This document shows positions 9,857 to 19,800 of a DNA stretch of 64,000 bases, piece by piece. Location: assembly GCA_013816135.1 (NCBI GenBank), contig JACDEV010000002.1:33120-97119 (forward strand), in the 5' to 3' direction. Numbering within the stretch: position 1 is the first letter of the stretch; each line of letters opens with the position of its first letter. Source of the DNA: Patescibacteria group bacterium. GTDB lineage: Bacteria; Patescibacteriota; Minisyncoccia; Phycocordibacterales; DATDWN01. A program made the position numbers and the translations under genes. Below the pieces are notes generated by a model. The model searched no databases and had not been told where the DNA came from. It saw only the letters and a program-made list of their open reading frames with translations.

Positions 9857-12103
9857 TTACTTTGCTACTGAAACAGCCTCCTCAAAAGCCACTGACAATA
9901 GTTTCGAACCTCCACCCATTCCCATTGTCACTCCATATAATATTCCAGCACGGGACATAGTTTCACGATTGTGAGTAATGACGATAAGCTGAGAATACTT
10001 AGAAAGATTCTCAATCATGTCAGCGTATTTTTTTGAATTAGCTTCATCTAGCGCCGCGTCAGTTTCATCGAGAATAATAAAGGGTGGTGGATTAACTTGA
10101 GAAATTGCAAACAATAAAGCAATGGAGGTTAGTGCTCTTTCACCACCAGAAAGCATCATCAAACCTTTGACTTTTTTCTTTGGCAAATTTACTTCTATCT
10201 CTATTCCCTCCTCTTCTTCTATCATTTCTGGAACTTCAATATCGTCCTCATCTAATGAAAGATCTGTATCTTTTTTCTTCTTTTTAACCGGAACTGTTAC
10301 AGAAAGCTTAGCTTCGCCACCTCCAAACATAACAGCAAAATATTCTTTAAACTGTGTGTTTATCTTATCTAAACCTGTCTTAAACTCCACACTTAATCGC
10401 GTATCAAGATCCTTTATTAACTCAGTTAATGATGAGGCAGATTTTTCTAAGTCTGTAATTTCTTTTTCCAAAAAAGCATCTCTTTCAGTAGCCTCTGTAA
10501 ACTCTTTGACCACATCAGATCCTCCCAGACCTCCAGCATCTTCCAATCGTATTTTTATCTTTTCTATTTTTCTTCGTCGTTCTTCCTGGAGAGTTCTTGC
10601 TTCATTGAAATCAAATGAAAGCGATTGGAACTGGAGAACATGAGTACCAAGAAGCATACCCAGCTCTGTTAGTTCTCTTTTAAAATCCTCTTTAAGAAGT
10701 TTCAAAGTCTCTTCTTCCAAATTCAAACTATGAAGTTTTGAACGAACTTCTTGTGACTCAGCCATGATCCTGAAAACAGCTTTTTCAGCATCTCTATTAG
10801 TATCTTTTTCTTTATCTATTGCTTCCTTCAATTCAGAATATTCTTTGCTAAGTTTATTTTCTCGATTTTTTATTTCTTCAAGTGAATCTTCTATCTGTTT
10901 CTTTGATTCTTTTAGATTTTCAATATCCTTTTGTGCATCTGCAATGAGAGACATATCTATTTTGTCTTTGTTCTGGTCTATAAAGTCAGTCAAAAAAGTC
11001 GATATTACATCCAATGATTTGACTAATTCTTCAATATTTCCTGAATTCTTTACCTGCTTTATTTGATCTTCAATTTTGCTCGATACTTCTTCAACAGATG
11101 AAAGAGTGACTGTCTTGTGATCCAGAGAGTGAGCTACTTCTTCCTGTTTTTTTACCATTCTTGCAAGAGATGATATTTCACCATCAAGCCGACCGAAATC
11201 TCTAAACAACTTATCTTTCTCTTCTCGAGTATCATGAAGAGATTTTTCCAGAGAAATCAGCTTTTCAGATTTTATATCTTTATTCTTTGCTCCTTCTAAT
11301 ACAGCCTTGGCTTCATTTAATTCATTTTCTAATGATTTTTCTTTTTCTAAAAGTGGTGACTTCTCAATATTCAATCTGTTTGTAGTCCTGTTTATATATT
11401 CATCTTCCCGACAACAATATTCCAAAGCTTCTTTCTGTAGTTCTTCCTTCATCTCTATGGTTTTCTGAACTTTCTCAACCTGCTTTTTTAGAAACCGGAT
11501 GTGTGGCATTATCTCTCTGCGGAGAGAACCCACTTGCTCTATGTTTTCGCGAGTCTTTACAAGCTTCCTTTCACTTTCTTGTTTCTTGTATTGATACATC
11601 TTCAATCCTAGTGCTTCCTCAATCATTGATTTTCTTTCCTTGATGGACGCATTCAGAACTCTATCAGCTTCGCCTTGAGAAATTATATGGTGTCCAGAAG
11701 AACCTATGTGAGCGCTAGCTAAAAGTTCAATGACGTCCCTTAGTCTGACCTGTGAGCCATTTATTAGATATTCATTTACAGAATCACGATGAACCACTCT
11801 TTCTATAGTTACTGTCTCAAAATCAAGAGGAAGGAATTTAGAGCTATTATCAAAAACAACCTTGACGCTTGCACGATTTCCTCGAGGCAACTCTCCTGCA
11901 CCATTGAAAATAAGATCTTCTCCTTTTTTGCCACGAAGTGATTTAATTGATTGCTCGCCTAAAACAAATCTAAATGCCTCAGCGATATTTGATTTACCTG
12001 AACCGTTCGGTCCGACAATAGCTGAGACTTTTGAAGAAAAATTAAGCTCGCTTTTTTTGGCGAAAGATTTGAATCCGGAAAGTTCGATACTCTTCAAGTA
12101 CAT
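9857..12103 (-). CDS. smc: SMC-family chromosome partition ATPase, unusually short (748 aa) and apparently hinge-less
   Basis: N-terminal head IELSGFKSFA...VGPNGSGKSNI (Walker A). C-terminal LSGGERALTSIALLFAI...FIILDETDAALD (ABC signature and Walker B). The middle is continuous coiled coil with no hinge-like Gly-rich block. Conserved rnc-smc synteny. Confidence 0.8.
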   Translation of the reverse strand: MYLKSIELSGFKSFAKKSELNFSSKVSAIVGPNGSGKSNIAEAFRFVLGEQSIKSLRGKKGEDLIFNGAGELPRGNRASVKVVFDNSSKFLPLDFETVTIERVVHRDSVNEYLINGSQVRLRDVIELLASAHIGSSGHHIISQGEADRVLNASIKERKSMIEEALGLKMYQYKKQESERKLVKTRENIEQVGSLRREIMPHIRFLKKQVEKVQKTIEMKEELQKEALEYCCREDEYINRTTNRLNIEKSPLLEKEKSLENELNEAKAVLEGAKNKDIKSEKLISLEKSLHDTREEKDKLFRDFGRLDGEISSLARMVKKQEEVAHSLDHKTVTLSSVEEVSSKIEDQIKQVKNSGNIEELVKSLDVISTFLTDFIDQNKDKIDMSLIADAQKDIENLKESKKQIEDSLEEIKNRENKLSKEYSELKEAIDKEKDTNRDAEKAVFRIMAESQEVRSKLHSLNLEEETLKLLKEDFKRELTELGMLLGTHVLQFQSLSFDFNEARTLQEERRRKIEKIKIRLEDAGGLGGSDVVKEFTEATERDAFLEKEITDLEKSASSLTELIKDLDTRLSVEFKTGLDKINTQFKEYFAVMFGGGEAKLSVTVPVKKKKKDTDLSLDEDDIEVPEMIEEEEGIEIEVNLPKKKVKGLMMLSGGERALTSIALLFAISQVNPPPFIILDETDAALDEANSKKYADMIENLSKYSQLIVITHNRETMSRAGILYGVTMGMGGGSKLLSVAFEEAVSVAK

Positions 12104-12198
12104 ATTGTTTTATTATATCAAAAATTGTTAGAAAAAATATAAGTGAAAAGGCATTACGCAGAGCGTAACGCCTTTTTCTCTAGGTATCTACCAGAAGG

Positions 12199-12480
12199 CT
12201 AAATTCTAATGGATGATATAGCTTGTTTGTTACCTGAAAGATGATTAGTGTAAGCTGTCCAGAAAATCTTCAATGCACTTCTGGAACGTCGAATTGCCTC
12301 CACACGTCTTCCCCTACGTTCCAACTCTTCTGCTTCCGACTTCAGTAACAAAGCTGACTCTGGATAAGAAAACTCTGATGCTTCCCCTGCAATTACCAGC
12401 GTTTGCCTGAGTTCTGATAGCTTCGCAGTCACTTCAAACTTCAGCGTTCTCTTCATCTCTTCTCCTAATGTACATACCAA
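12199..12480 (-). CDS. hypothetical protein
   Basis: 93-aa ORF between rnc and smc, GC-richer than surroundings. An imperfect hairpin at 12148-12180 follows. Confidence 0.25.
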   Translation of the reverse strand: MVCTLGEEMKRTLKFEVTAKLSELRQTLVIAGEASEFSYPESALLLKSEAEELERRGRRVEAIRRSRSALKIFWTAYTNHLSGNKQAISSIRI

Positions 12481-12527
12481 GATTGGTATTTTTTTATATA
12501 ATGTCGTGAATTTATACTTAAGTCAAG

Positions 12528-13220
12528 TTACTCCCAACCTCGAGTTTCTAGTGCCCTCTTTGCTGCTCCTTGTTCTGCGTCCTGTTTTGATTCTCCTTCA
12601 CCTGTAGCAACGAGGTCCTTACCTATGTAAACACCAACTGTAAATCTTTTTTCATGATCTGGCCCTGATTCCTTTACGGTTTTATATGAAGGTGTGATAC
12701 CGTCATATTCCTGAGCTTTTTCCTGGAATAATGATTTTGCATCAATGAATGTTTTTTCAGAAATAATAGCTTCAATGAGAGTTGTGAAATTGCGTTCAAT
12801 AAATTTCCTTACAGTGTCATATCCTTGATCAATATATATTGATCCAATCAAAGCTTCTAGTGCATTAGCAAGAATGTATTGCCTCGCACGTCCCACATCT
12901 TTACTTTCACCTTTTGAAAGAAGTAAATAGTCTCCCATATTTAAATTTACAGCGATGGAAGCGCATGTATCAGCATTAACCAATGCTGAACGATAAGCTG
13001 TTAGATCACCTTCGGTTTTGTCCGTATATTTATTGTAAAGAAAATCAGTAATAACAAGTTCCAACACAGCATCTCCTAAAAACTCCAGTCTTTCGTTATG
13101 TGAAAGTCCTGATTGCTTATTTTCATTTATATATGAACGATGAACAAAAGCCTGTTTTAAAACATCTTTATCTTTGAAGGTTACTTCCGCTTTTTTTTCG
13201 AACTCTGCAAAATCAGGCAT
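12528..13220 (-). CDS. rnc: ribonuclease III
   Basis: RNase III signature ERLEFLGDAVLELVITDFLY plus a C-terminal dsRBD. Confidence 0.9.
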   Translation of the reverse strand: MPDFAEFEKKAEVTFKDKDVLKQAFVHRSYINENKQSGLSHNERLEFLGDAVLELVITDFLYNKYTDKTEGDLTAYRSALVNADTCASIAVNLNMGDYLLLSKGESKDVGRARQYILANALEALIGSIYIDQGYDTVRKFIERNFTTLIEAIISEKTFIDAKSLFQEKAQEYDGITPSYKTVKESGPDHEKRFTVGVYIGKDLVATGEGESKQDAEQGAAKRALETRGWE

Positions 13221-13235
13221 ATGAAGTAGTGGATT

Positions 13236-14147
13236 TTAGGCTTTTTTTAATAACAAATTGATTGCTTTGGTCACGAGTGGAAGGATATCATTATAGAAGT
13301 TTAGGTCAAGTATGTCAGCTAATTTGAACCATTTTGCATCATCTAGCCCACCTTTCTGCTCAACGACTATATCTTTATATTGTGATTCTGCCAAAAAGTA
13401 AACTACATGTTTTCTAGTCTTGCCTTTTTCAGGGTGGTAAGCAATGTATTCGTTTTCACCAAGTTTCTCTTTAATCTCAATATCGAGTCCGAGTTCCTCT
13501 TTTATTTCACGGATAGTTCCTTCCTCAATAGTTTCATTGGCAACTTCAGGACTATCACCTATTTTTCCTTTTGAAAGTGTCCACCTCCCGAAAACATCGT
13601 GTACTAATGCAAGATAAATATCTTCTCCATCTTTGGCATAGACAACTGCTCCGCCTAATTTTTCATTATGGACCACAGCACCATTTGCAATCTTATTTTT
13701 TGTCTTGGAAGTTTCGTCCTTGCCTGGCTCGCCAAGTTCTTTGTATACAGCACCCAATACTCCGTTAACAAACTTACTTGATGTGTCTCCTCCAAAAGCT
13801 TTGGATAATTCAATTGCTTCATTGATAGCCACCTTAGGAGGAACTTGTGATCGGTCGGCAAAAAGCAGTTCGTACAATCCTATACGCAAAATATTTCTAT
13901 CTATTATATTGATTTTATCCATTGGCCAATCAGGAGCAGCTTTAACAATAATCAAATCAATATCTTTTTGTTTACCTAAAACTCCCTTGAGCAAAGTTTC
14001 CATAAAGGAAAAATCTCCCAAACCGGGAGCAAATTCCTCTGCATTACGCGCAAAAATTTCCATAGCCTGATCAGAATTTCGTGAACCGAAATCCCATTCA
14101 AATAGTGTCTGCAATATTATTGATCTGGAAAGGTGCCGGTTTGCCAT
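13236..14147 (-). CDS. nusB: NusB-like antitermination domain fused to a C-terminal Nudix hydrolase domain
   Basis: The N-terminal ~140 aa are a NusB fold (LFEWDF...FVNGVLGAV). The C-terminal half carries the Nudix box GX5EX7REIKEELGL. Confidence 0.75.
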   Translation of the reverse strand: MANRHLSRSIILQTLFEWDFGSRNSDQAMEIFARNAEEFAPGLGDFSFMETLLKGVLGKQKDIDLIIVKAAPDWPMDKINIIDRNILRIGLYELLFADRSQVPPKVAINEAIELSKAFGGDTSSKFVNGVLGAVYKELGEPGKDETSKTKNKIANGAVVHNEKLGGAVVYAKDGEDIYLALVHDVFGRWTLSKGKIGDSPEVANETIEEGTIREIKEELGLDIEIKEKLGENEYIAYHPEKGKTRKHVVYFLAESQYKDIVVEQKGGLDDAKWFKLADILDLNFYNDILPLVTKAINLLLKKA

Positions 14148-14340
14148 AATTAAGTGGTTCTAATTCCTAGAAATAGCATACCAAAAAATAAATTCTTAGT
14201 CTAGGGTAGTAACAATCAACTTAAACTTTCAAATTTGAGTGAAATCCGAGGCGGATAAGGAAAAGAACTGGAGACGTATAGTAATACGTTGACAGGTATT
14301 TTCTGAAATCCAACGACGGAGTTCGCCAAATTTGAAAGTT

Positions 14341-14568
14341 TTATCTACCTTCCTTCTTTGCTGCTTGAGCTTTTTTGTTGCGCTTTGTAATCTTTGCCTG
14401 AACATCTATTACCTGTCTGCCTTTGTACAATCCAGTTACAAGTGATGCTCGGTGTCGAAGATGAGGAACGTTTGTGCTTTTATCTACAGTTACTGCAGGA
14501 GAAGATAAGCCATCGTGAGATCGCCTGTTGTTTCTATGACTTTTGGTGCTACGCATTCTTACTACCAT
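14341..14568 (-). CDS. rpmF: 50S ribosomal protein L32
   Basis: RRSHDGLSSPAVTVDKSTNVPHLRHRASL...GLYKGRQVI matches the L32 consensus. The true start may be the downstream Met (14556). Confidence 0.8.
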   Translation of the reverse strand: MVVRMRSTKSHRNNRRSHDGLSSPAVTVDKSTNVPHLRHRASLVTGLYKGRQVIDVQAKITKRNKKAQAAKKEGR

Positions 14569-14631
14569 AATGTGAATACATTACATTAAAGCCTCAGAAA
14601 AATCAACTCACTTACATAAACTATTCATATA

Positions 14632-14660
14632 TAAAAAAACCGCCGATAAAATCGGGGTTC
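14632..14660 (-). terminator. rho-independent terminator after the Nudix gene
   Basis: Minus-strand hairpin AACCCCGATTTTATCGGCGG followed by 7 T. A 13-bp inverted repeat AGGTCTCATGAGG/CCTCATGAGACCT (14661-14700) overlaps the Nudix stop codon. Confidence 0.6.
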
Positions 14661-14681
14661 GAGGTCTCATGAGGTAATTAC

Positions 14682-15140
14682 TTATTTCCTCATGAGACCT
14701 AAGTGCTGTAATGCCTTTAGCAAGGCCATCTGATGGGTTCGAAAAACTTTTTTGATAGCTTCCTCATCACTTATCCAGTAGGGAGAGGAAAGACGATCCG
14801 TACCATCTAGAATTTCATGCATTCTTATCTTTCCTTCCAAATCCTCTTCCTTAATAAGGTAAAAGAACATTGGAAAGTTCTCAACGACTACATGAATTTC
14901 TTCTGGAACAACAGCAGGCTTTAACCTTAGACCTGTTTCTTCCCATAACTCCCTACGCATCGTGAGAACAGGAGTTCTTTCTTTTTTTCTTTTTTTACGC
15001 CCACCGCCTGGAAATTTGGTTTGTGTGGGTTTCTTCGAGTATCTGGAATCGACACTTTTACTGTCGATTACCAAAACCTCTAATCTACCCTTACAAAATC
15101 TCCAAACAATGGCTCCTGCCCAACCTTTGAGCCATTCCAC
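14682..15140 (-). CDS. Nudix hydrolase
   Basis: Nudix box GGGRKKRKKERTPVLTMRRELWEETGL. Confidence 0.8.
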   Translation of the reverse strand: MEWLKGWAGAIVWRFCKGRLEVLVIDSKSVDSRYSKKPTQTKFPGGGRKKRKKERTPVLTMRRELWEETGLRLKPAVVPEEIHVVVENFPMFFYLIKEEDLEGKIRMHEILDGTDRLSSPYWISDEEAIKKVFRTHQMALLKALQHLGLMRK

Positions 15141-15223
15141 ATAGTTACCTCTTTCCTTTCTTATGGTTTGTACTTTATATAATCCCTAATTGCATCCTAC
15201 AATGGTTTATTAAAAACGTCAAC

Positions 15224-15838
15224 TCAACCAATAGATATTTTTAGGTTTCGACAAAAAGTCCTTCGGTGTAGTTCTGATATTCCATGCAATTCAATCAAGG
15301 ACCTATGTCCCTTTGTTCCGTAACCTTTGTGACTATCAAATCCATAAACTGGAAACTTTTTTGAGAGTTGGCACATCAATTTATCCCTTGATACTTTGGC
15401 TAGTATAGAAGCCCACGCTATAATCTTTTCCTTTTCATCACCCTTGATAATTGTTTGCTGATCCAAAAATTCATCAGGAGCTTTAAGGTTTCCATCCAGA
15501 AGAACTCGACAATTCTTTGCATCAAAGCCTAGTTTTTTCAAACTAGAGGACATAGCCTTTTTTATTGCGAAAACTATTCCTTGAGAATCTATAGTTTTGT
15601 TTCCTATATGAGTTACTGCATAAAAAATTTTACCTTCTTTTGAAAAAGACTTCAAAATTTTATCGAATTTATTTCTCTCCTCTGGTTTTAATTTTTTACT
15701 ATCCTTACCTACAACAGGGAGATATTTGGAATTCTTAAGTTTCCGATAGATTTTATATTCACAAGCAACTACACAGACTGAAACTGGACCTCCCAATGGT
15801 CCCTTGCCGACTTCATCTATTCCCAAAATCATTTTCAT
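15224..15838 (-). CDS. rnhB: ribonuclease HII
   Basis: ILGIDEVGKGPLGGPV N-terminal catalytic motif. Confidence 0.9.
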   Translation of the reverse strand: MKMILGIDEVGKGPLGGPVSVCVVACEYKIYRKLKNSKYLPVVGKDSKKLKPEERNKFDKILKSFSKEGKIFYAVTHIGNKTIDSQGIVFAIKKAMSSSLKKLGFDAKNCRVLLDGNLKAPDEFLDQQTIIKGDEKEKIIAWASILAKVSRDKLMCQLSKKFPVYGFDSHKGYGTKGHRSLIELHGISELHRRTFCRNLKISIG

Positions 15839-16332: not shown

Positions 16333-19300
16333 TTGCAAATCATGGCCTCCAAATTCATTCATCTCCACACTCATTCCCACTACTCACTTCTAAATGCTCT
16401 GCCAAAAATAAAAGCCTTAGTAGACGAAGCAAAAAAAAATGACATGCCGGCTTTGGCGCTGACAGATAATTGCAATTTATACGGAGCTGTAGAGTTCTAT
16501 CAAGCCTGCAAAAAAAAAGATATCAAACCCATTATAGGAATTGATGCTTATGTTTCCTATCGTTCAAGACACGATAAACAAACTGGTATCGACAAAGAAA
16601 GATATCGATTGGTACTCCTTGCAAAAAATGATGTTGGATATAAGAACCTGATAAAACTTGTGACTTTGGCTCATGTTGAAGGTTTTTACTACAAACCTAG
16701 AATTGACCGTGAACTCATGGAAAAATACAGTGAAGGGTTAATAGCTATCGCTCCTTCATTTCAAAGCGATATACTTTCCTCTCTGAAATTGGCCAACACA
16801 GAAAAAGCAATGGAGAGATTGGCTTGGTACAAAAAAACATTTAATGGTTCAGACGAAGAACCCAACTTTTATCTTGAAGTAACTCATCATCCTGAAATAA
16901 AAGGCCATGATGAAAACATGACGAAAATTATAGCCTTTGCAAAAGAAACAAAAACGCCACTTGTTGCAGCAAATGATGTTTACTATATTTCACCAGAAGA
17001 CAGACCGGCAAGAGAAACTTTAATGGCAGTACAACAGAATATTGATATTGCAGACAGAAGTCCAGAGACTGACGACTTATCATTTATCTCTGATAAAACA
17101 GCAAAAAAATATTTCAAAGATCTACCTGATGCTTTAGAAAACACCACCAAAATTGCAGATAGATGTAATCTAGAAATTTCAATTGGTAAATGGTTCTTAC
17201 CTAAGTACATAGTCGAAAGTGGACTTTCATATGATGACGAACTACGCCGAATTGTAGAAGAAGGAATACCAAAACGAAAACTTGCTAAAACTCCCGAGTT
17301 ATTAGAAAGAATGGAATATGAATTGAAAATCATAAAAGATAAAGGCTATGCTCCATATTTTCTTGTAGTATCTGATCTTCTACGTTACGCTCACGCTAAT
17401 GGAATACTAACTACTATCAGAGGGTCGGTTGCGGGATCATTAGCAACGTATCTAGCTGGTATTACAAATGTTAATCCGATCGAATATCTTCTTCCATTTG
17501 AAAGATTTCTAAACCCTGAAAGACCATCGGCACCAGATATCGATATGGACTTTGCAGATAATAGAAGAGACCAGATGATCGACTATGCTCGAGGAAAATA
17601 TGGTTTCGACAAAGTAGCCCAGATAGGAACCTTCGGTACTATGGCCGCAAGAGGAGCTGTCAGAGATGTTACTAGAGCTTTAGGATTTCCATATGTAACT
17701 GGAGATACAATTGCCAAACTTATTCCTATGGGAGCACAGGGTTTCCCAATGACAATCGACAGAGCCTTGAAAGAAGAGCCTGATTTAAAAAAATTATATG
17801 AAGCGGAGTCAGATGTAAAAAAGATAATAGATATGGCAAAAAAGATTGAGGGTTGTGCTCGCCATATTTCTGTTCATGCTGCCGGAGTTGTTATTTCTCC
17901 AACCCCGCTTACAGATTATGTTCCTCTCCAATACGATACAAAAGGCGACAACAAAATAATTACCCAATATGACATGCATGCAGTGGGAGAAGACGGCGTT
18001 GGTCTATTAAAATTTGATTTTCTTGGAATCAGAAATCTTTCGATACTCGCAGATGCGGTAAAGCTCGCTGAAAAGATTGAAGGTGTAAAAGTTGATATTG
18101 AAAATGTGCCTGTTGATGATAAAAAAGTTTTTGAAATGTTGGCTCGCGGAGAAACAGTAGGTCTCTTTCAGCTAAACGGTGATGGAATGACTAGGTCTCT
18201 TATGGAACTAAAACCTACCGCAATCCACGACATTAACTTGATGGTGGCGCTTTATCGTCCTGGTCCGATGGAAAACATTAACGAATACATTGCTAGAAAG
18301 CACGGTAAAAAACCTGTGGTTTATCTCCACCCTAAAATGAAAAAGTTTTTAGATAAAACATACGGTGTGCTTGTTTATCAAGACGATTTGCTGATGACTG
18401 CAATTGAAGTTGCAGGTTACACTTGGGGAGAAGTAGATAAATTTCGTAAAGCTGTCGGAAAAAAAATCCGTGAAGAAATGGCCAAACAACATATTAAGTT
18501 CGTGGAAGGATGTATCACGCATGGTGGAATGGAAAGAAAAAAAGCTGAAGAACTTTGGAATCTATTTGAGCCTTTCCAAGGATATGGATTCAACAAAGCA
18601 CATGCTGCAAGTTATGGAAAAGTAGCTTATCAAACTGCTTACATGAAAACTCATTTTCCAGCAATTTATATGTCAGCAGTGTTAACCGCCGAATCAGGAA
18701 ATATTGAAATGATTTCTGAAATAGTCGGCGAATGTAAAAGAATGAAGATTCCAGTTCTACCTCCTGATGTAAATGAATCATTTGAAGGCTTCACTGTCGT
18801 TAAGACGACAGTGAACAATATACAGCCTGTGATTAAAGAATCCGTTGACTCGATCAGGTTTGGACTTACAACAATAAAAAACTTTGGAGAAGGGATAGCT
18901 ACTTCGATAATTGAAGAAAGAAAAGCCAATGGTCCATTCGTTTCTATTTCCGACTTCCTACGCAGGATTAAAGATAAGAACTTAAACAAGAAATCCCTTG
19001 AATCTCTAATTAAAACAGGGGCTTTGGATTCATTTGACCAAACTCACACAGAAAATTTTAGAGCTATGCTTCTTTTTAACCTAGACCGTTTATTAACTTT
19101 TAACAAAGAAGAAAGAAGTAAAGAAACTGATCAGGATTCCCTCTTCTCCCTTATGGCAACACCAGCTCAAGCTAGTGAAGTTCATCTTGAAAAATCTCCA
19201 CCTAGTAATCCGACTGACAAGTTGGGATGGGAAAAAGATTTACTTGGTTTGTACATTTCCGGACATCCTTTAGATAGCTTTAGAGAAAAACTATCTGGTC

Positions 19301-19590
19301 GTGATTCAAATATAAAAAAACTAAAAGAAACTTCAAAGGAAAAGGACTCTGTTGTGGTTGGAGGAATAATTGAAGAAATAAAAAGCGTTATGACTAAAAA
19401 AGGTGATAAAATGATTTTCTTGAAAATTGCTGATTTGTCCGACAACATTGAGGCTGTAGCTTTTCCTAAAATATTTGAGGAATTCCAAGATATATTAACT
19501 CCTGAGAACTGTGTAGTTGTAAAAGGTACTTTCTCTACTCGAAATGGTGGAAAAAGTATACTAGTTGATAAAGTGAAATTAATGGAGTGA
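16333..19590 (+). CDS. dnaE: DNA polymerase III alpha subunit
   Basis: PHP domain (FIHLHTHSHYSLL), polymerase core, and C-terminal OB fold. 1085 aa. Confidence 0.9.
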   Translation: MQIMASKFIHLHTHSHYSLLNALPKIKALVDEAKKNDMPALALTDNCNLYGAVEFYQACKKKDIKPIIGIDAYVSYRSRHDKQTGIDKERYRLVLLAKNDVGYKNLIKLVTLAHVEGFYYKPRIDRELMEKYSEGLIAIAPSFQSDILSSLKLANTEKAMERLAWYKKTFNGSDEEPNFYLEVTHHPEIKGHDENMTKIIAFAKETKTPLVAANDVYYISPEDRPARETLMAVQQNIDIADRSPETDDLSFISDKTAKKYFKDLPDALENTTKIADRCNLEISIGKWFLPKYIVESGLSYDDELRRIVEEGIPKRKLAKTPELLERMEYELKIIKDKGYAPYFLVVSDLLRYAHANGILTTIRGSVAGSLATYLAGITNVNPIEYLLPFERFLNPERPSAPDIDMDFADNRRDQMIDYARGKYGFDKVAQIGTFGTMAARGAVRDVTRALGFPYVTGDTIAKLIPMGAQGFPMTIDRALKEEPDLKKLYEAESDVKKIIDMAKKIEGCARHISVHAAGVVISPTPLTDYVPLQYDTKGDNKIITQYDMHAVGEDGVGLLKFDFLGIRNLSILADAVKLAEKIEGVKVDIENVPVDDKKVFEMLARGETVGLFQLNGDGMTRSLMELKPTAIHDINLMVALYRPGPMENINEYIARKHGKKPVVYLHPKMKKFLDKTYGVLVYQDDLLMTAIEVAGYTWGEVDKFRKAVGKKIREEMAKQHIKFVEGCITHGGMERKKAEELWNLFEPFQGYGFNKAHAASYGKVAYQTAYMKTHFPAIYMSAVLTAESGNIEMISEIVGECKRMKIPVLPPDVNESFEGFTVVKTTVNNIQPVIKESVDSIRFGLTTIKNFGEGIATSIIEERKANGPFVSISDFLRRIKDKNLNKKSLESLIKTGALDSFDQTHTENFRAMLLFNLDRLLTFNKEERSKETDQDSLFSLMATPAQASEVHLEKSPPSNPTDKLGWEKDLLGLYISGHPLDSFREKLSGRDSNIKKLKETSKEKDSVVVGGIIEEIKSVMTKKGDKMIFLKIADLSDNIEAVAFPKIFEEFQDILTPENCVVVKGTFSTRNGGKSILVDKVKLME

Positions 19591-19787
19591 GAATTTAAAT
19601 AGTTTTTCCAAGACACGCATAAAGTTCTATTGAACTTTTGCTATGCTCGTCAATCAAGAAAACAAACAATAAAATGAGTTGGTCCTCTCGCAAACTCGGG
19701 ATTACCCTCAAACAGTGCTTCGGACTATTCATTTTATTGTTGTTTTCTAATTGACTGTGCAATGTCTTGGAAAAACTATTTAAATTC
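19591..19787. repeat. MITE-like element: perfect 25-bp terminal inverted repeats flanking an imperfectly palindromic ~150-bp core
   Basis: GAATTTAAATAGTTTTTCCAAGACA (19591-19615) is the exact inverse complement of 19763-19787. Inner arms (CAATCAAGAAAACAAACAATAAAATGAGT) also pair imperfectly. Starts 1 nt after the dnaE stop. Confidence 0.5.
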
Positions 19788-19800
19788 TTTGATGGAAAGA

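What the first reader, a model, noticed from the sequence alone, without database searches (positions are those of the whole stretch)
13236..15140. NusB fused to a Nudix hydrolase, with a second Nudix gene two ORFs away
The 303-aa protein couples a complete NusB antitermination fold to a complete Nudix domain with an intact Nudix box. A stand-alone 152-aa Nudix hydrolase sits on the other side of rpmF. A Nudix activity (e.g. RNA decapping or NDP-X hydrolysis) physically tethered to the NusB antitermination factor is an unusual pairing of transcription/rRNA processing with nucleotide hydrolysis.
Basis: partly seen in the sequence, partly recalled or inferred. Interest (0 to 1): 0.5.

Follow-up and report, generated by a model that had tools for sequence, protein, structure and literature searches.

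The report
NusB carrying a tethered Nudix domain
In a large group of ultra-small (Patescibacteria) bacteria, the rRNA transcription factor NusB carries a permanently attached Nudix domain that keeps its likely nucleotide-binding residues but often loses its catalytic ones, so it probably binds rather than cleaves; the second Nudix gene nearby is an unrelated lineage-specific extra.

Summary
ORF 13236..14147(-) encodes 303 aa: a bona fide NusB (TIGR01951, 123.9 bits against a cut-off of 88.35), a disordered ~20-aa linker, and a Nudix domain (PF00293). It is not a frameshift artefact. All 120 best database hits, ~54 clusters at 50% identity and ~45 GTDB species representatives (Paceibacterota, Zambryski-, Kaiser-, Nomura-, Niyogi-, Ryan-, Komeilibacteria) have the same single ORF, always between rpmF and rnc, where NusB-only Patescibacteria have plain nusB. 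The Nudix half is closest to dinucleoside-polyphosphate (Ap4A/Ap6A) hydrolases.

The catalytic reading is weakened. The window's copy keeps REIKEELGL but has Gx10E instead of Gx5E. Family-wide, the box is the least constrained part: R plus three Glu are intact in 45/120 close and 9/54 diverse relatives, with ≥25 state changes on the tree. The aligned putative nucleotide-contact residues (K193, Y234, Y250, Y285) stay at 87-100% even where the glutamates are gone. I infer a mostly non-catalytic nucleotide-binding module tethered to the rRNA antitermination/RNase III processing machinery.

The stand-alone 152-aa Nudix is unrelated in sequence, basic, nearly an orphan, and present at that position in only one other locus. 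No paper describing the fusion was found. Verdict: new variant of a known kind; moderate interest.

The parts
13236..14147 (-). nusB-nudix fusion CDS (303 aa plus stop)
   Evidence: ORF; Pfam and NCBIfam domains; 100% identical NCBI protein P0001 named 'transcription antitermination factor NusB'.
13728..14147 (-). NusB domain, aa 1-140 (seven helices)
   Evidence: TIGR01951 123.9 bits, above the cut-off. The model has helices 2-138 with pLDDT mostly above 90. It superposes on NusB of the NusB-NusE-BoxA complex 3r2c (TM 0.88, rmsd 1.8 A). F126 aligns to NusB F122 and D83 to E81, the BoxA-U8 pocket residues, and both are conserved family-wide.
13671..13727 (-). Flexible basic linker, aa 141-159 (conserved GEPGK start, then a variable K-rich stretch)
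   Evidence: pLDDT below 50 for residues 145-154 and pTM 0.61; highest sequence entropy of the protein; net charge +2, pI 9.6.
13239..13670 (-). Nudix domain, aa 160-303, ApnA-hydrolase-like
   Evidence: PF00293 46.2 bits. Foldseek best hit is Aquifex Ap4A hydrolase 3i7u (E 3e-9, TM 0.86), followed by MutT1/Rv2985, Ndx1 and CT771. The phmmer search of PDB sequences gives the same ranking.
13485..13568 (-). Nudix box region, aa 194-221: G194-x10-E205-x7-REIKEELGL
   Evidence: Read directly from the sequence. The 5-aa insert and the family-wide variability of R213/E214/E217 are shown.
14341..14568 (-). rpmF (ribosomal protein L32)
   Evidence: PF01783 and TIGR01031; conserved upstream neighbour of nusB in related loci.
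12528..13220 (-). rnc (RNase III), starting 15 nt after the fusion's stop codon
   Evidence: Ribonuclease_3 plus dsrm domains; immediately downstream of nusB or nusB-nudix in nearly all of the 80 loci.
14682..15140 (-). Stand-alone 152-aa Nudix ('Nudix2'): basic, near-orphan, NOT a functional partner of the fusion
   Evidence: PF00293 30.2 bits; only a self-hit in the protein collection; 33% identical homolog only in L001; pI 9.74; no similarity to the fused Nudix.
15224..15838 (-). rnhB (RNase HII), conserved upstream flank of the cluster
   Evidence: PF01351; synteny.
9857..12103 (-). smc, conserved downstream flank (rnc-smc)
   Evidence: Translation; synteny by tblastn.

Best explanation
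This gene is the organism's orthologous nusB. In one large Patescibacteria clade (Paceibacteria/Parcubacteria lineages) it acquired a C-terminal Nudix domain of the dinucleoside-polyphosphate (ApnA) hydrolase type, joined by a disordered linker of about 20 residues.

Shown: the NusB half keeps the BoxA/NusE determinants and the orthologous genomic position, so it should act with NusE on the rRNA leader in the antitermination and processing complex whose downstream step is RNase III cleavage. RNase III is encoded immediately downstream.

Inferred: the Nudix half is kept under strong purifying selection for its fold and for residues that align with the nucleotide-contacting residues of ApnA hydrolases, but not for the metal-binding glutamates. 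Its conserved job is therefore to BIND a nucleotide-polyphosphate ligand, not to hydrolyse it. Candidate ligands are free ApnA or NTP-type molecules, or a 5'-ppp or Np4-capped RNA end. Such binding could give NusB a ligand-dependent regulatory input or an extra anchor that stabilises its residence in the complex, a role comparable to the enzyme-fold protein SuhB in E. coli.

In the window's own copy the REUxEE residues are intact, so residual hydrolysis is possible. Family comparison suggests it is not the selected function.
For: The fusion is real and widespread. All 120 top homologs are 293-352 aa with both Pfam domains. About 54 full-length fusion clusters exist at the 50% level, down to 34% identity. 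About 45 GTDB species representatives carry it.

Orthology to nusB. TIGR01951 scores above its cut-off. The gene order rnhB-rpmF-nusB(-nudix)-rnc-smc is the same in fusion and NusB-only genomes, with only 30-250 nt between nusB and rnc in the latter. F126 (=F122) is invariant and D83 (=E81) is at least 90% conserved.

Two domains on a tether. pLDDT is 91, the linker is below 50, and pTM is 0.61.

ApnA-hydrolase affinity. Y234 aligns to the ApnA specificity tyrosine of human NUDT2 (PMC5389931).

Catalysis is not the constrained feature. R plus 3 Glu are intact in 45/120 close and 9/54 diverse fusions, and E214 is Gly in 54/120. The box helix has the highest entropy of the folded parts. At least 25 state changes occur on a 174-taxon tree, and pairs 93-94% identical outside the box differ in it.

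Putative binding residues persist. K193, Y234, K246, Y250, W273 and Y285 are 87-100% retained even where at most 1 of 3 Glu remains. A decayed-box member still models as the same fold at pLDDT 92.5.

Functional link between NusB/BoxA tethering, SuhB stabilisation and RNase III processing: PMC4807359, PMC6614801, bioRxiv 10.64898/2026.03.17.712431.
Against: No ligand, partner or activity has been measured, so the binding role is inferred from conservation patterns only. Several 'binding' residues (W189, Y250, W273) could be conserved simply as core residues. I had no model coordinates with which to check solvent exposure. The window's own protein, and 64% of the relatives that share its 5-aa insert, keep R plus 3 Glu, so this sub-lineage may still be an active enzyme. 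The domain is acidic (pI about 5.2), which argues against an extended RNA-binding surface. AlphaFold gives no confident docking of the two domains. Absence of SuhB in these genomes was not testable. No rRNA leader or boxA is in the window. The NJ/Fitch count of losses is approximate.
Confidence: 0.5

Rival explanations
1. Active enzyme tethered to the transcription complex. The Nudix domain is a working pyrophosphohydrolase that NusB delivers to nascent rRNA or mRNA. There it would remove 5'-pyrophosphate or Np4A/NAD-type caps, or locally clear ApnA or oxidised NTPs.
For: The window's copy has E205-x7-REIKEELGL with all three glutamates. 27 of the 42 close relatives with the same loop insert keep them. 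Some divergent fusions have fully canonical boxes, for example P0231 and P0246, so the ancestral fusion was probably an active ApnA-type hydrolase. ApnA-type Nudix enzymes and RppH can remove Np4 caps (PMC7044304, PMC8833179).
Against: Most family members lack at least one essential glutamate. E214 is G, I, V or K in the majority, and the state flips between near-identical proteins. That pattern is not expected if hydrolysis were the selected function. The Gx5E spacing is broken by a 5-aa insert in the window's copy. RppH, NudC and Dcp2 are only distant structural hits (ranks 16 and 46-50). The domain is acidic, unlike RNA-directed Nudix enzymes.
Confidence: 0.27
2. Fusion of convenience. A housekeeping Nudix gene was fused to nusB during genome streamlining for co-expression only. 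There is no functional coupling, and the Nudix part is slowly decaying.
For: CPR genomes are compact and rich in odd fusions. Related NusB proteins carry other C-terminal extensions without Pfam matches. The catalytic box is decaying.
Against: Outside the box, the Nudix domain is conserved almost as strongly as NusB (mean entropy 0.58 against 0.49 bits in close relatives, 2.39 against 1.95 in diverse ones). It has been retained across lineages that are only 34-40% identical. No unfused nusB+nudix neighbour arrangement was seen in about 35 NusB-only loci. No convincing stand-alone ortholog was found. A decaying passenger would accumulate stops, deletions and fold-breaking changes, not only box changes.
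Confidence: 0.18
3. Sequencing or assembly artefact: a frameshift joins two separate genes.
For: None found.
Against: The same uninterrupted ORF with a conserved linker start (GEPGK) occurs in hundreds of independent assemblies from NCBI, JGI, ENA and Logan and in about 45 GTDB species representatives. There is no homopolymer run at the junction.
Confidence: 0.01

Closest known systems
Canonical bacterial NusB (E. coli, Aquifex, M. tuberculosis; TIGR01951, PF01029) in the NusB-NusE-BoxA and rrnTAC complexes
   Same: The N-terminal 140 aa have the same fold (TM 0.88 to 3r2c) and score above the equivalog HMM cut-off. The BoxA-U8 pocket residues are conserved (F126=F122, D83=E81), as is the aromatic residue at the nusB5 position (F16=Y18). 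The gene sits at the orthologous position next to rnc.
   Different: It carries a 160-aa C-terminal extension (linker plus Nudix domain) that the characterised NusB proteins compared here lack. Whether SuhB, S4 and other rrnTAC partners exist in these organisms is unknown.
Dinucleoside-polyphosphate (Ap4A/Ap6A) Nudix hydrolases: Aquifex aq_158 (3i7u), Thermus Ndx1 (1vc8), M. tuberculosis Rv2985/MutT1 Nudix domain (9cxx), Chlamydia CT771, human NUDT2
   Same: They are the best structural and sequence neighbours of the C-terminal domain (TM 0.86, 28% identity to 3i7u). The domain has a W-x-x-(P/S)-K-G strand before the box, the ApnA specificity tyrosine (Y234) and a C-terminal aromatic residue (Y285). 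It is acidic, like these small-molecule enzymes.
   Different: It is fused to NusB. The family-wide Nudix box is degenerate (E214 mostly not Glu). The window's copy has a Gx10E loop insert. No activity is known.
Non-catalytic Nudix-fold ligand-binding domains (NrtR ADP-ribose sensor, TRPM2 NUDT9-H, DBC1, MutY C-terminal domain)
   Same: A Nudix fold is retained while the catalytic box residues are relaxed. The domain is attached to a module that acts on nucleic acid or transcription. The NrtR Nudix domain appears among the structural hits (3gz8).
   Different: There is no specific sequence relationship, and the NrtR superposition is poor (rmsd 9 A). The partner here is an elongation/antitermination factor, not a DNA-binding repressor. 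Some members, including the window's, still have a complete catalytic helix.
SuhB in the E. coli rRNA antitermination complex
   Same: By hypothesis only: a small-molecule-enzyme fold recruited as a component that stabilises NusB/NusE on the boxA-containing leader and promotes RNase III processing (PMC6614801; bioRxiv 10.64898/2026.03.17.712431).
   Different: The fold is unrelated (IMPase against Nudix). SuhB is a separate dimeric protein and is not fused. No evidence here shows that the Nudix domain contacts NusA, RNAP or RNA.
RsmB/Sun (NusB-like N-terminal domain fused to a 16S rRNA m5C methyltransferase)
   Same: A NusB-fold N-terminal domain is fused to a C-terminal enzyme-fold domain. 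Weak partial NCBIfam hits to the RsmB N-terminus were seen.
   Different: The RsmB models score far below their cut-offs (52 against 319 bits). There is no methyltransferase domain. The N-terminal domain here is the true nusB ortholog by HMM and by synteny.

Membership tests
NusB (TIGR01951 / PF01029) | Family HMM score above the curated cut-off | tested here: met
   TIGR01951 123.9 bits against 88.35; PF01029 109.6 bits against 23.1.
NusB (TIGR01951 / PF01029) | All-helical NusB fold superposable on NusB from NusB-NusE(-BoxA) complexes | tested here: met
   Model pLDDT mostly above 90 over residues 1-138; 3r2c TM 0.88 with rmsd 1.8 A; 3d3c TM 0.81.
NusB (TIGR01951 / PF01029) | BoxA-contact residues (Phe122 stacking on U8, Glu81) and the NusE-interface aromatic residue (Tyr18) | tested here: met
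   The alignment to E. coli NusB, together with PMC3177189, gives F126=F122 (invariant in 56 diverse fusions), D83=E81 (acidic in at least 97%) and F16=Y18.
NusB (TIGR01951 / PF01029) | Orthologous single-copy gene position | tested here: met
   The rpmF-nusB-rnc order is the same in fusion and NusB-only Patescibacteria. There is no second NusB in the window, and no second NusB locus from any fusion-bearing assembly among the 80 best loci. Whole genomes were not searchable.
NusB (TIGR01951 / PF01029) | Binds NusE (S10) and a boxA element in the rRNA leader | not testable with these tools
   The window has no rRNA operon (Rfam finds only tRNA-Thr).
Nudix superfamily (PF00293) | Family HMM above the gathering score, and an alpha/beta/alpha Nudix fold | tested here: met
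   46.2 bits against 21.1; the model has the strand-helix-strand topology and hits more than 300 Nudix chains.
Nudix hydrolases (catalytically active) | Nudix box GX5EX7REUXEEXGU in the protein itself | tested here: inconclusive
   E205-x7-R213-E214-I-K-E217-E218-L-G220-L is present, but G194-x10-E205 replaces Gx5E because of a 5-aa insert.
Nudix hydrolases (catalytically active) | Catalytic box residues conserved among orthologs | tested here: not met
   R plus 3 Glu are intact in 45/120 close and 9/54 diverse fusions. E214 is conserved at 0.22 in the diverse set. At least 25 state changes occur on the tree.
Nudix hydrolases (catalytically active) | Measured pyrophosphohydrolase activity | not testable with these tools
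   Requires biochemistry.
ApnA (Ap4A/Ap6A) hydrolase subfamily | Closest relatives are ApnA hydrolases, and the specificity tyrosine downstream of the box is present | tested here: met
   3i7u, 9cxx, 1vc8, 4mpo and 1ktg top the Foldseek and phmmer lists. Y234 aligns to NUDT2 Tyr82, which is Tyr87 in 1XSC numbering (PMC5389931). It is Y or F in 87% of diverse fusions.
RNA-directed Nudix enzymes (RppH / NudC / Dcp2) | Specific similarity to RppH, NudC or Dcp2, and a basic RNA-binding surface | tested here: not met
   BdRppH (rank 46, TM 0.63), NudC (rank 50) and Dcp2 (rmsd above 11 A) are only distant hits. NF001299 (NAD+ diphosphatase) scores 19 against a cut-off of 158. The domain's pI is 5.15.
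RsmB/Sun NusB-like fusion | C-terminal SAM-dependent methyltransferase domain | tested here: not met
   Only partial N-terminal matches far below the cut-offs. The C-terminal domain is Nudix.
Stand-alone ORF 14682..15140 as a Nudix hydrolase | PF00293 above the gathering score and a REUxEExGU helix | tested here: met
   30.2 bits against 21.1; RELWEETGL at aa 63-71, with a lengthened basic loop. Its subfamily is unknown: the best PDB sequence hit is NudF at E 0.14.

The most novel reading that the evidence does not exclude
The NusB-tethered Nudix domain is a pseudoenzyme or sensor. It binds an ApnA-type alarmone, an NTP, or the 5'-polyphosphate or Np4-capped end of the nascent rRNA leader. Through that binding it controls or stabilises assembly of the NusB-NusE-BoxA complex, coupling rRNA transcription and RNase III processing to nucleotide status in host-dependent, nucleotide-scavenging CPR bacteria. 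It would be a built-in functional replacement for SuhB-type stabilisation.
Probability: 0.25. Interest if true: 0.7.

Novelty: new variant of a known kind. Interest (0 to 1): 0.45.

Why it matters
NusB is a core, near-universal bacterial transcription and ribosome-biogenesis factor that is normally a bare 140-aa helical protein. A clade-wide, strongly conserved fusion to a nucleotide-binding fold suggests that a major group of uncultivated, genome-reduced bacteria has wired an extra input or anchor into rRNA antitermination and processing. The repeated loss of the catalytic glutamates, with retention of residues that align with the binding cleft, makes it a possible natural case of an enzyme fold being converted into a binding module. 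It also flags an annotation gap: public sources name these proteins only 'NusB'. If the ligand were an alarmone or an RNA 5' end, it would give a directly testable link between nucleotide status and ribosome synthesis in CPR bacteria.

Tried and rejected
(1) Frameshift or misassembly artefact: rejected, because the same ORF occurs in hundreds of independent assemblies.

(2) The two Nudix genes as duplicates or a functional pair: rejected. They show no pairwise similarity. Nudix2 is an orphan and is syntenic in only L001. The L022 slot ORF has only motif-level resemblance.

(3) Origin by fusion of adjacent nusB and nudix genes: no unfused arrangement was found in about 35 NusB-only loci.

(4) Stand-alone orthologs of the Nudix domain as donors: the candidate short representatives are truncations. 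P0245 starts 22 nt from a contig edge, and P0235 starts inside the linker. P0250 looks chimeric and was left unresolved.

(5) The 120-nt hairpin upstream of nusB as an rncO-like or NusB-specific regulatory element: set aside. It is a repeated element with a second copy at 57289-57405, and it is absent from the closest relative's spacer.

(6) Literature: four searches found no description of a NusB-Nudix fusion. The Nudix-clan review PMC5389931 does not mention NusB.

(7) AFDB fold search for the architecture outside Patescibacteria: the library was unavailable.

(8) boxA or rRNA leader test: impossible, because the window has no rRNA.

(9) dN/dS on the box: not attempted, because synonymous sites would be saturated at 60-80% protein identity.
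Full report
OBSERVATION.

- 13236..14147(-) encodes 303 aa.
- 14341..14568(-) encodes a 75-aa L32.
- 14682..15140(-) encodes a 152-aa protein with a GTG start.

Pfam and NCBIfam place NusB at aa 7-136 of the 303-aa protein. PF01029 scores 109.6 bits. The equivalog model TIGR01951 scores 123.9 bits against a cut-off of 88.35. NUDIX (PF00293) covers aa 166-285 at 46.2 bits against a cut-off of 21.1. The 152-aa ORF is also NUDIX (30.2 bits).

The neighbours are RNase HII (15224..15838), RNase III (12528..13220, starting 15 nt after the fusion's stop) and SMC (9857..12103), all on the minus strand. DnaE lies divergently at 16333..19590. The window is about 37% G+C. It carries no rRNA, only one tRNA-Thr.

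IS THE FUSION REAL?

Yes. A 100% identical protein is in NCBI under the name 'transcription antitermination factor NusB [Patescibacteria group bacterium]'. All 120 best homologs (75-84% identical, 293-352 aa, from NCBI, JGI, ENA and Logan assemblies) carry both Pfam domains.

An exhaustive search of 1.84 billion cluster representatives gave 157 hits below 1e-30. About 54 of these are full-length fusions, down to 34% identity.

A scan of one genome per GTDB species returned about 45 species whose match covers residues 1-~300 in one frame. They are labelled Paceibacterota, Kaiser-, Zambryski-, Nomura-, Niyogi-, Ryan- and Komeilibacteria, and Parcubacteria. Other Patescibacteria (Azam-, Yanofsky-, Moran-, Staskawicz-, Doudnabacteria and others) matched only residues 1-~140. 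The junction DNA has no homopolymer run.

IS IT THE nusB ORTHOLOG?

tblastn of the window's neighbours against the 80 loci shows a near-invariant order: DnaE(-) | RNase HII - L32 - NusB(-Nudix) - RNase III - SMC. NusB-only genomes keep L32 - NusB - RNase III with only 30-250 nt between nusB and rnc. So the fusion sits at the orthologous nusB position, and there is no 'split' nusB + nudix arrangement.

No second NusB is in the window. No fusion-bearing assembly contributed a second NusB locus among the 80 best.

The NusB half aligns end-to-end with E. coli and Aquifex NusB. According to the NusB-NusE-BoxA structure paper (PMC3177189), BoxA-U8 is stacked by NusB-F122 and read by E81.
- F122 aligns to F126, one of only three invariant columns in 56 diverse fusions.
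- E81 aligns to D83, which is acidic in at least 97% of fusions.
- Y18, the nusB5 position, aligns to F16.

The AlphaFold model (56-sequence alignment; pLDDT 91) superposes on NusB of 3r2c with TM 0.88 and rmsd 1.8 A.

WHAT KIND OF NUDIX?

By sequence and by structure, the C-terminal domain is closest to dinucleoside-polyphosphate hydrolases:
- Aquifex Ap4A hydrolase 3i7u (E 3e-9, TM 0.86, 28% identity);
- M. smegmatis MutT1 and M. tuberculosis Rv2985 ('Nudix diadenosine polyphosphatase');
- Thermus Ndx1 (Ap6A);
- Chlamydia CT771;
- C. elegans and human Ap4A hydrolases.

RppH, NudC and Dcp2 are only distant hits. Against human NUDT2, whose sequence I verified against 3u53, the domain aligns at E 6e-4.
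- W189-T-L-S-K193-G aligns to W-T-P-P-K-G.
- Y234 aligns to Tyr82, which is Tyr87 in 1XSC numbering. This is the documented ApnA 'specificity tyrosine' that contacts the adenine ring (PMC5389931).
- Y285 aligns to Phe128 (Phe133 in 1XSC numbering). I recall this as the second adenine-stacking residue, but that rests on memory and was not checked here.

The linker (residues 145-154) has pLDDT below 50 and pTM is 0.61. The model therefore shows two confident domains on a flexible tether with no confident docking.

THE CATALYTIC BOX IS THE LEAST CONSTRAINED PART.

The window's protein reads G194-KIGDSPEVAN-E205-TIEEGTI-R213-E214-I-K-E217-E218-L-G220-L. The Ex7REUxEExGU part is intact. The first spacing is Gx10E instead of Gx5E because of a 5-aa insert shared by 42/120 close relatives.

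Across the family the picture changes.
- R213+E214+E217+E218 are all present in only 45/120 close relatives and 9/54 diverse cluster representatives.
- E214, which occupies the position of the first Glu of REUxEE, is Gly in 54/120 close relatives. It is I, V, K or A in most diverse ones.
- In the diverse set, the best-conserved Nudix positions are G166 (0.91), D184 (0.87), W189 (0.94), T190 (0.87), K193 (0.93), Y250 (0.89), W273 (0.93) and Y285 (0.91).
- The box positions are lower: E205 0.65, R213 0.59, E214 0.22, E217 0.54 and E218 0.74.
- In close relatives the box helix has the highest entropy of any folded segment: 0.97 bits, against 0.58 for the whole Nudix domain and 0.49 for NusB.

I built a neighbour-joining tree without the box columns. 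The 'R+3E intact' state needs at least 25 changes over 174 taxa (the shuffled expectation is 46). Proteins 93-94% identical elsewhere differ in state, for example P0078 REIKEE against P0049 QGIKDE.

The putative binding residues (K193, Y234, K246, Y250, W273, Y285) remain at 87-100% even in fusions retaining at most one of the three glutamates. A decayed-box member (P0140, box CDGIKNELNI) is modelled with the same topology at pLDDT 92.5. That is modest evidence, because the alignment imposes the family fold. The domain is acidic (pI 5.15; below 6 in 39/54 representatives).

INTERPRETATION.

Shown:
- It is a real, ancient, clade-wide fusion of the orthologous NusB with an ApnA-hydrolase-type Nudix fold.
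- The fold, and the residues that align with the binding cleft, are under strong constraint.
- Constraint on the catalytic glutamates is relaxed and has been lost repeatedly.

Inferred: the conserved function of the appended domain is binding, not hydrolysis. Two facts about NusB's role frame this inference. NusB/NusE tether the boxA leader to elongating RNAP and so promote formation of the RNase III substrate helix (PMC4807359). In E. coli the NusB/E interaction is transient until it is stabilised by SuhB, itself an enzyme-fold protein, and stable assembly boosts co-transcriptional RNase III cleavage (PMC6614801; bioRxiv 10.64898/2026.03.17.712431). On that basis I propose that the tethered Nudix module gives NusB one of two things in these organisms. 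It could be a ligand-dependent input (ApnA or NTP-type nucleotides, or a 5'-ppp or Np4-capped RNA end; cf. PMC7044304 and PMC8833179). Or it could be an additional anchor.

The conserved nusB-rnc adjacency fits a shared rRNA-processing context. I give this about 0.5. The main rival, at about 0.27, is that the window's sub-lineage still uses the domain as an active hydrolase. A passive 'fusion of convenience' gets about 0.18, and an artefact about 0.01.

THE SECOND NUDIX.

ORF 14682..15140 shares no significant similarity with the fused domain. It finds only itself among 5.8 billion proteins. Its best PDB sequence hit is NudF at E 0.14. It is strongly basic (pI 9.74), with an RKKRKKER insert before RELWEETGL.

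Only L001 has a homolog at the same position (33% identity, E 4e-21). L022 has a small ORF with a Nudix motif there but no significant similarity. Most genomes have nothing in that slot, or unrelated ORFs. It is therefore a lineage-specific accessory gene in a variable slot, not a conserved partner of the fusion. If either protein is RNA-directed, its charge makes Nudix2 the better candidate, but this is speculation.

COMPARISON AND NOVELTY.

The N-terminal half passes every NusB membership test that could be run. The C-terminal half is a Nudix-fold member of the ApnA-hydrolase neighbourhood, but it fails the 'catalytic residues conserved among orthologs' test. It resembles non-catalytic Nudix sensors (NrtR, TRPM2 NUDT9-H, DBC1) in principle, not in sequence. 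It is not an RsmB-type NusB-like fusion.

Public sources name these proteins only 'NusB'. Four literature searches found no description of the architecture, and the Nudix-clan survey PMC5389931 does not mention NusB. The searchable library is incomplete, and domain-architecture databases could not be queried.

I rate it a new variant of a known kind, interest 0.45. A transcription specialist would find a clade-wide NusB-Nudix fusion with a decaying catalytic site notable. But the function is inferred, and CPR genomes contain many unusual fusions.

LIMITS.
- No coordinates were available to separate core residues from cleft residues.
- The loss count uses a distance tree with Fitch parsimony.
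- Whole genomes could not be searched for a second nusB or for suhB.
- No rRNA leader was available.
- The AFDB library was unavailable.

Noticed in passing
window 14223-14341 and 57289-57405: A repeated palindromic element of about 117 nt. Copy A lies between the rpmF stop and the nusB-nudix start. It has a perfect 15-nt terminal inverted repeat (AAACTTTCAAATTTG) and folds into one long hairpin (-53.7 kcal/mol, z -6.7). Copy B, in another intergenic spacer, is roughly 75-80% identical in the opposite orientation and has the same span. It looks like a MITE/REP-like intergenic hairpin repeat. Structured L32-nusB spacers (z <= -3) occur in 14/38 related loci, but not in the closest relative L001.
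   Followed up: partly
window 13290-13318 (-): A promoter-like site CTGACA-17-TATAAT (11/12 matches) lies inside the 3' end of the Nudix coding region, about 70 nt upstream of rnc. The TATAAT is formed by codons Y285-N286 of the highly conserved FYND motif. It could be an internal rnc promoter that adds nucleotide-level constraint, or it could be chance in an AT-rich genome.
   Followed up: no
window 14928-15011 (-) and 14643-14700: The stand-alone Nudix has a lysine/arginine-rich insert (RKKRKKER) in its Nudix-box loop and a pI of 9.74. A 17-nt inverted repeat straddles its stop codon, followed by a terminator-like hairpin with a T-run. The gene therefore appears to be its own transcription unit.
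   Followed up: partly
loci L001-L080 (slot between RNase HII and L32); window 14569-15223: The rnhB-rpmF spacer is a variable slot: 11-1488 nt across related genomes. It is empty in most. Elsewhere it holds unrelated accessory ORFs, for example a 218-aa ORF in L027, a 223-aa ORF in L029, a 140-aa ORF in L030, and two ORFs (one with a Nudix motif) in L022.
   Followed up: partly
proteins P0257, P0264, P0266, P0247, P0155, P0161, P0179, P0209, P0125: Related Patescibacteria NusB proteins carry other C-terminal extensions of 70-200 aa with no Pfam match; at least four of them (P0247, P0257, P0264, P0266) are visibly K/E-rich and low in complexity. One fusion (P0125, 358 aa) has an extra weak Rho_N-like tail after the Nudix domain. 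The NusB C-terminus seems to be a hot spot for appended modules in this phylum.
   Followed up: partly
protein P0250 (142 aa); P0136 (254 aa); P0150 (200 aa): P0250 looks like a stand-alone Nudix. Its N-terminal half is a canonical MutT-like sequence (GQWVAPGGRIEFGE...REIKEELGL) and its C-terminal half is nearly identical to the fusion family. It could be a donor, a recombinant or a chimera. P0136 and P0150 are fusions with large internal deletions in the NusB domain. All three are single cluster representatives, and their contigs were not examined.
   Followed up: no
loci L001-L080; window 9857-14568: The rpmF-nusB-rnc(-smc) adjacency is conserved across many Patescibacteria lineages, whether or not NusB carries the Nudix domain. 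The nusB-rnc linkage mirrors the genetic and functional nus-rnc connection described in E. coli.
   Followed up: partly
window 19590-19615 / 19763-19788: A perfect 26-nt inverted repeat with 147 nt between the arms, plus a nested 18-nt repeat (19660-19677 / 19729-19746), lies at the 3' end of dnaE and overlaps small minus-strand ORFs (I1 and I8). It is unexplained.
   Followed up: no
records behind P0008, L047, L053, L080 and the many 'uncultured Candidatus Saccharibacteria' loci: Several source records carrying this Paceibacteria-type nusB region are labelled Nitrospira, Bdellovibrionales, Gammaproteobacteria or Saccharibacteria. These are probably mis-binned MAGs or loosely assigned taxonomy, not evidence for the gene outside this group.
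   Followed up: no
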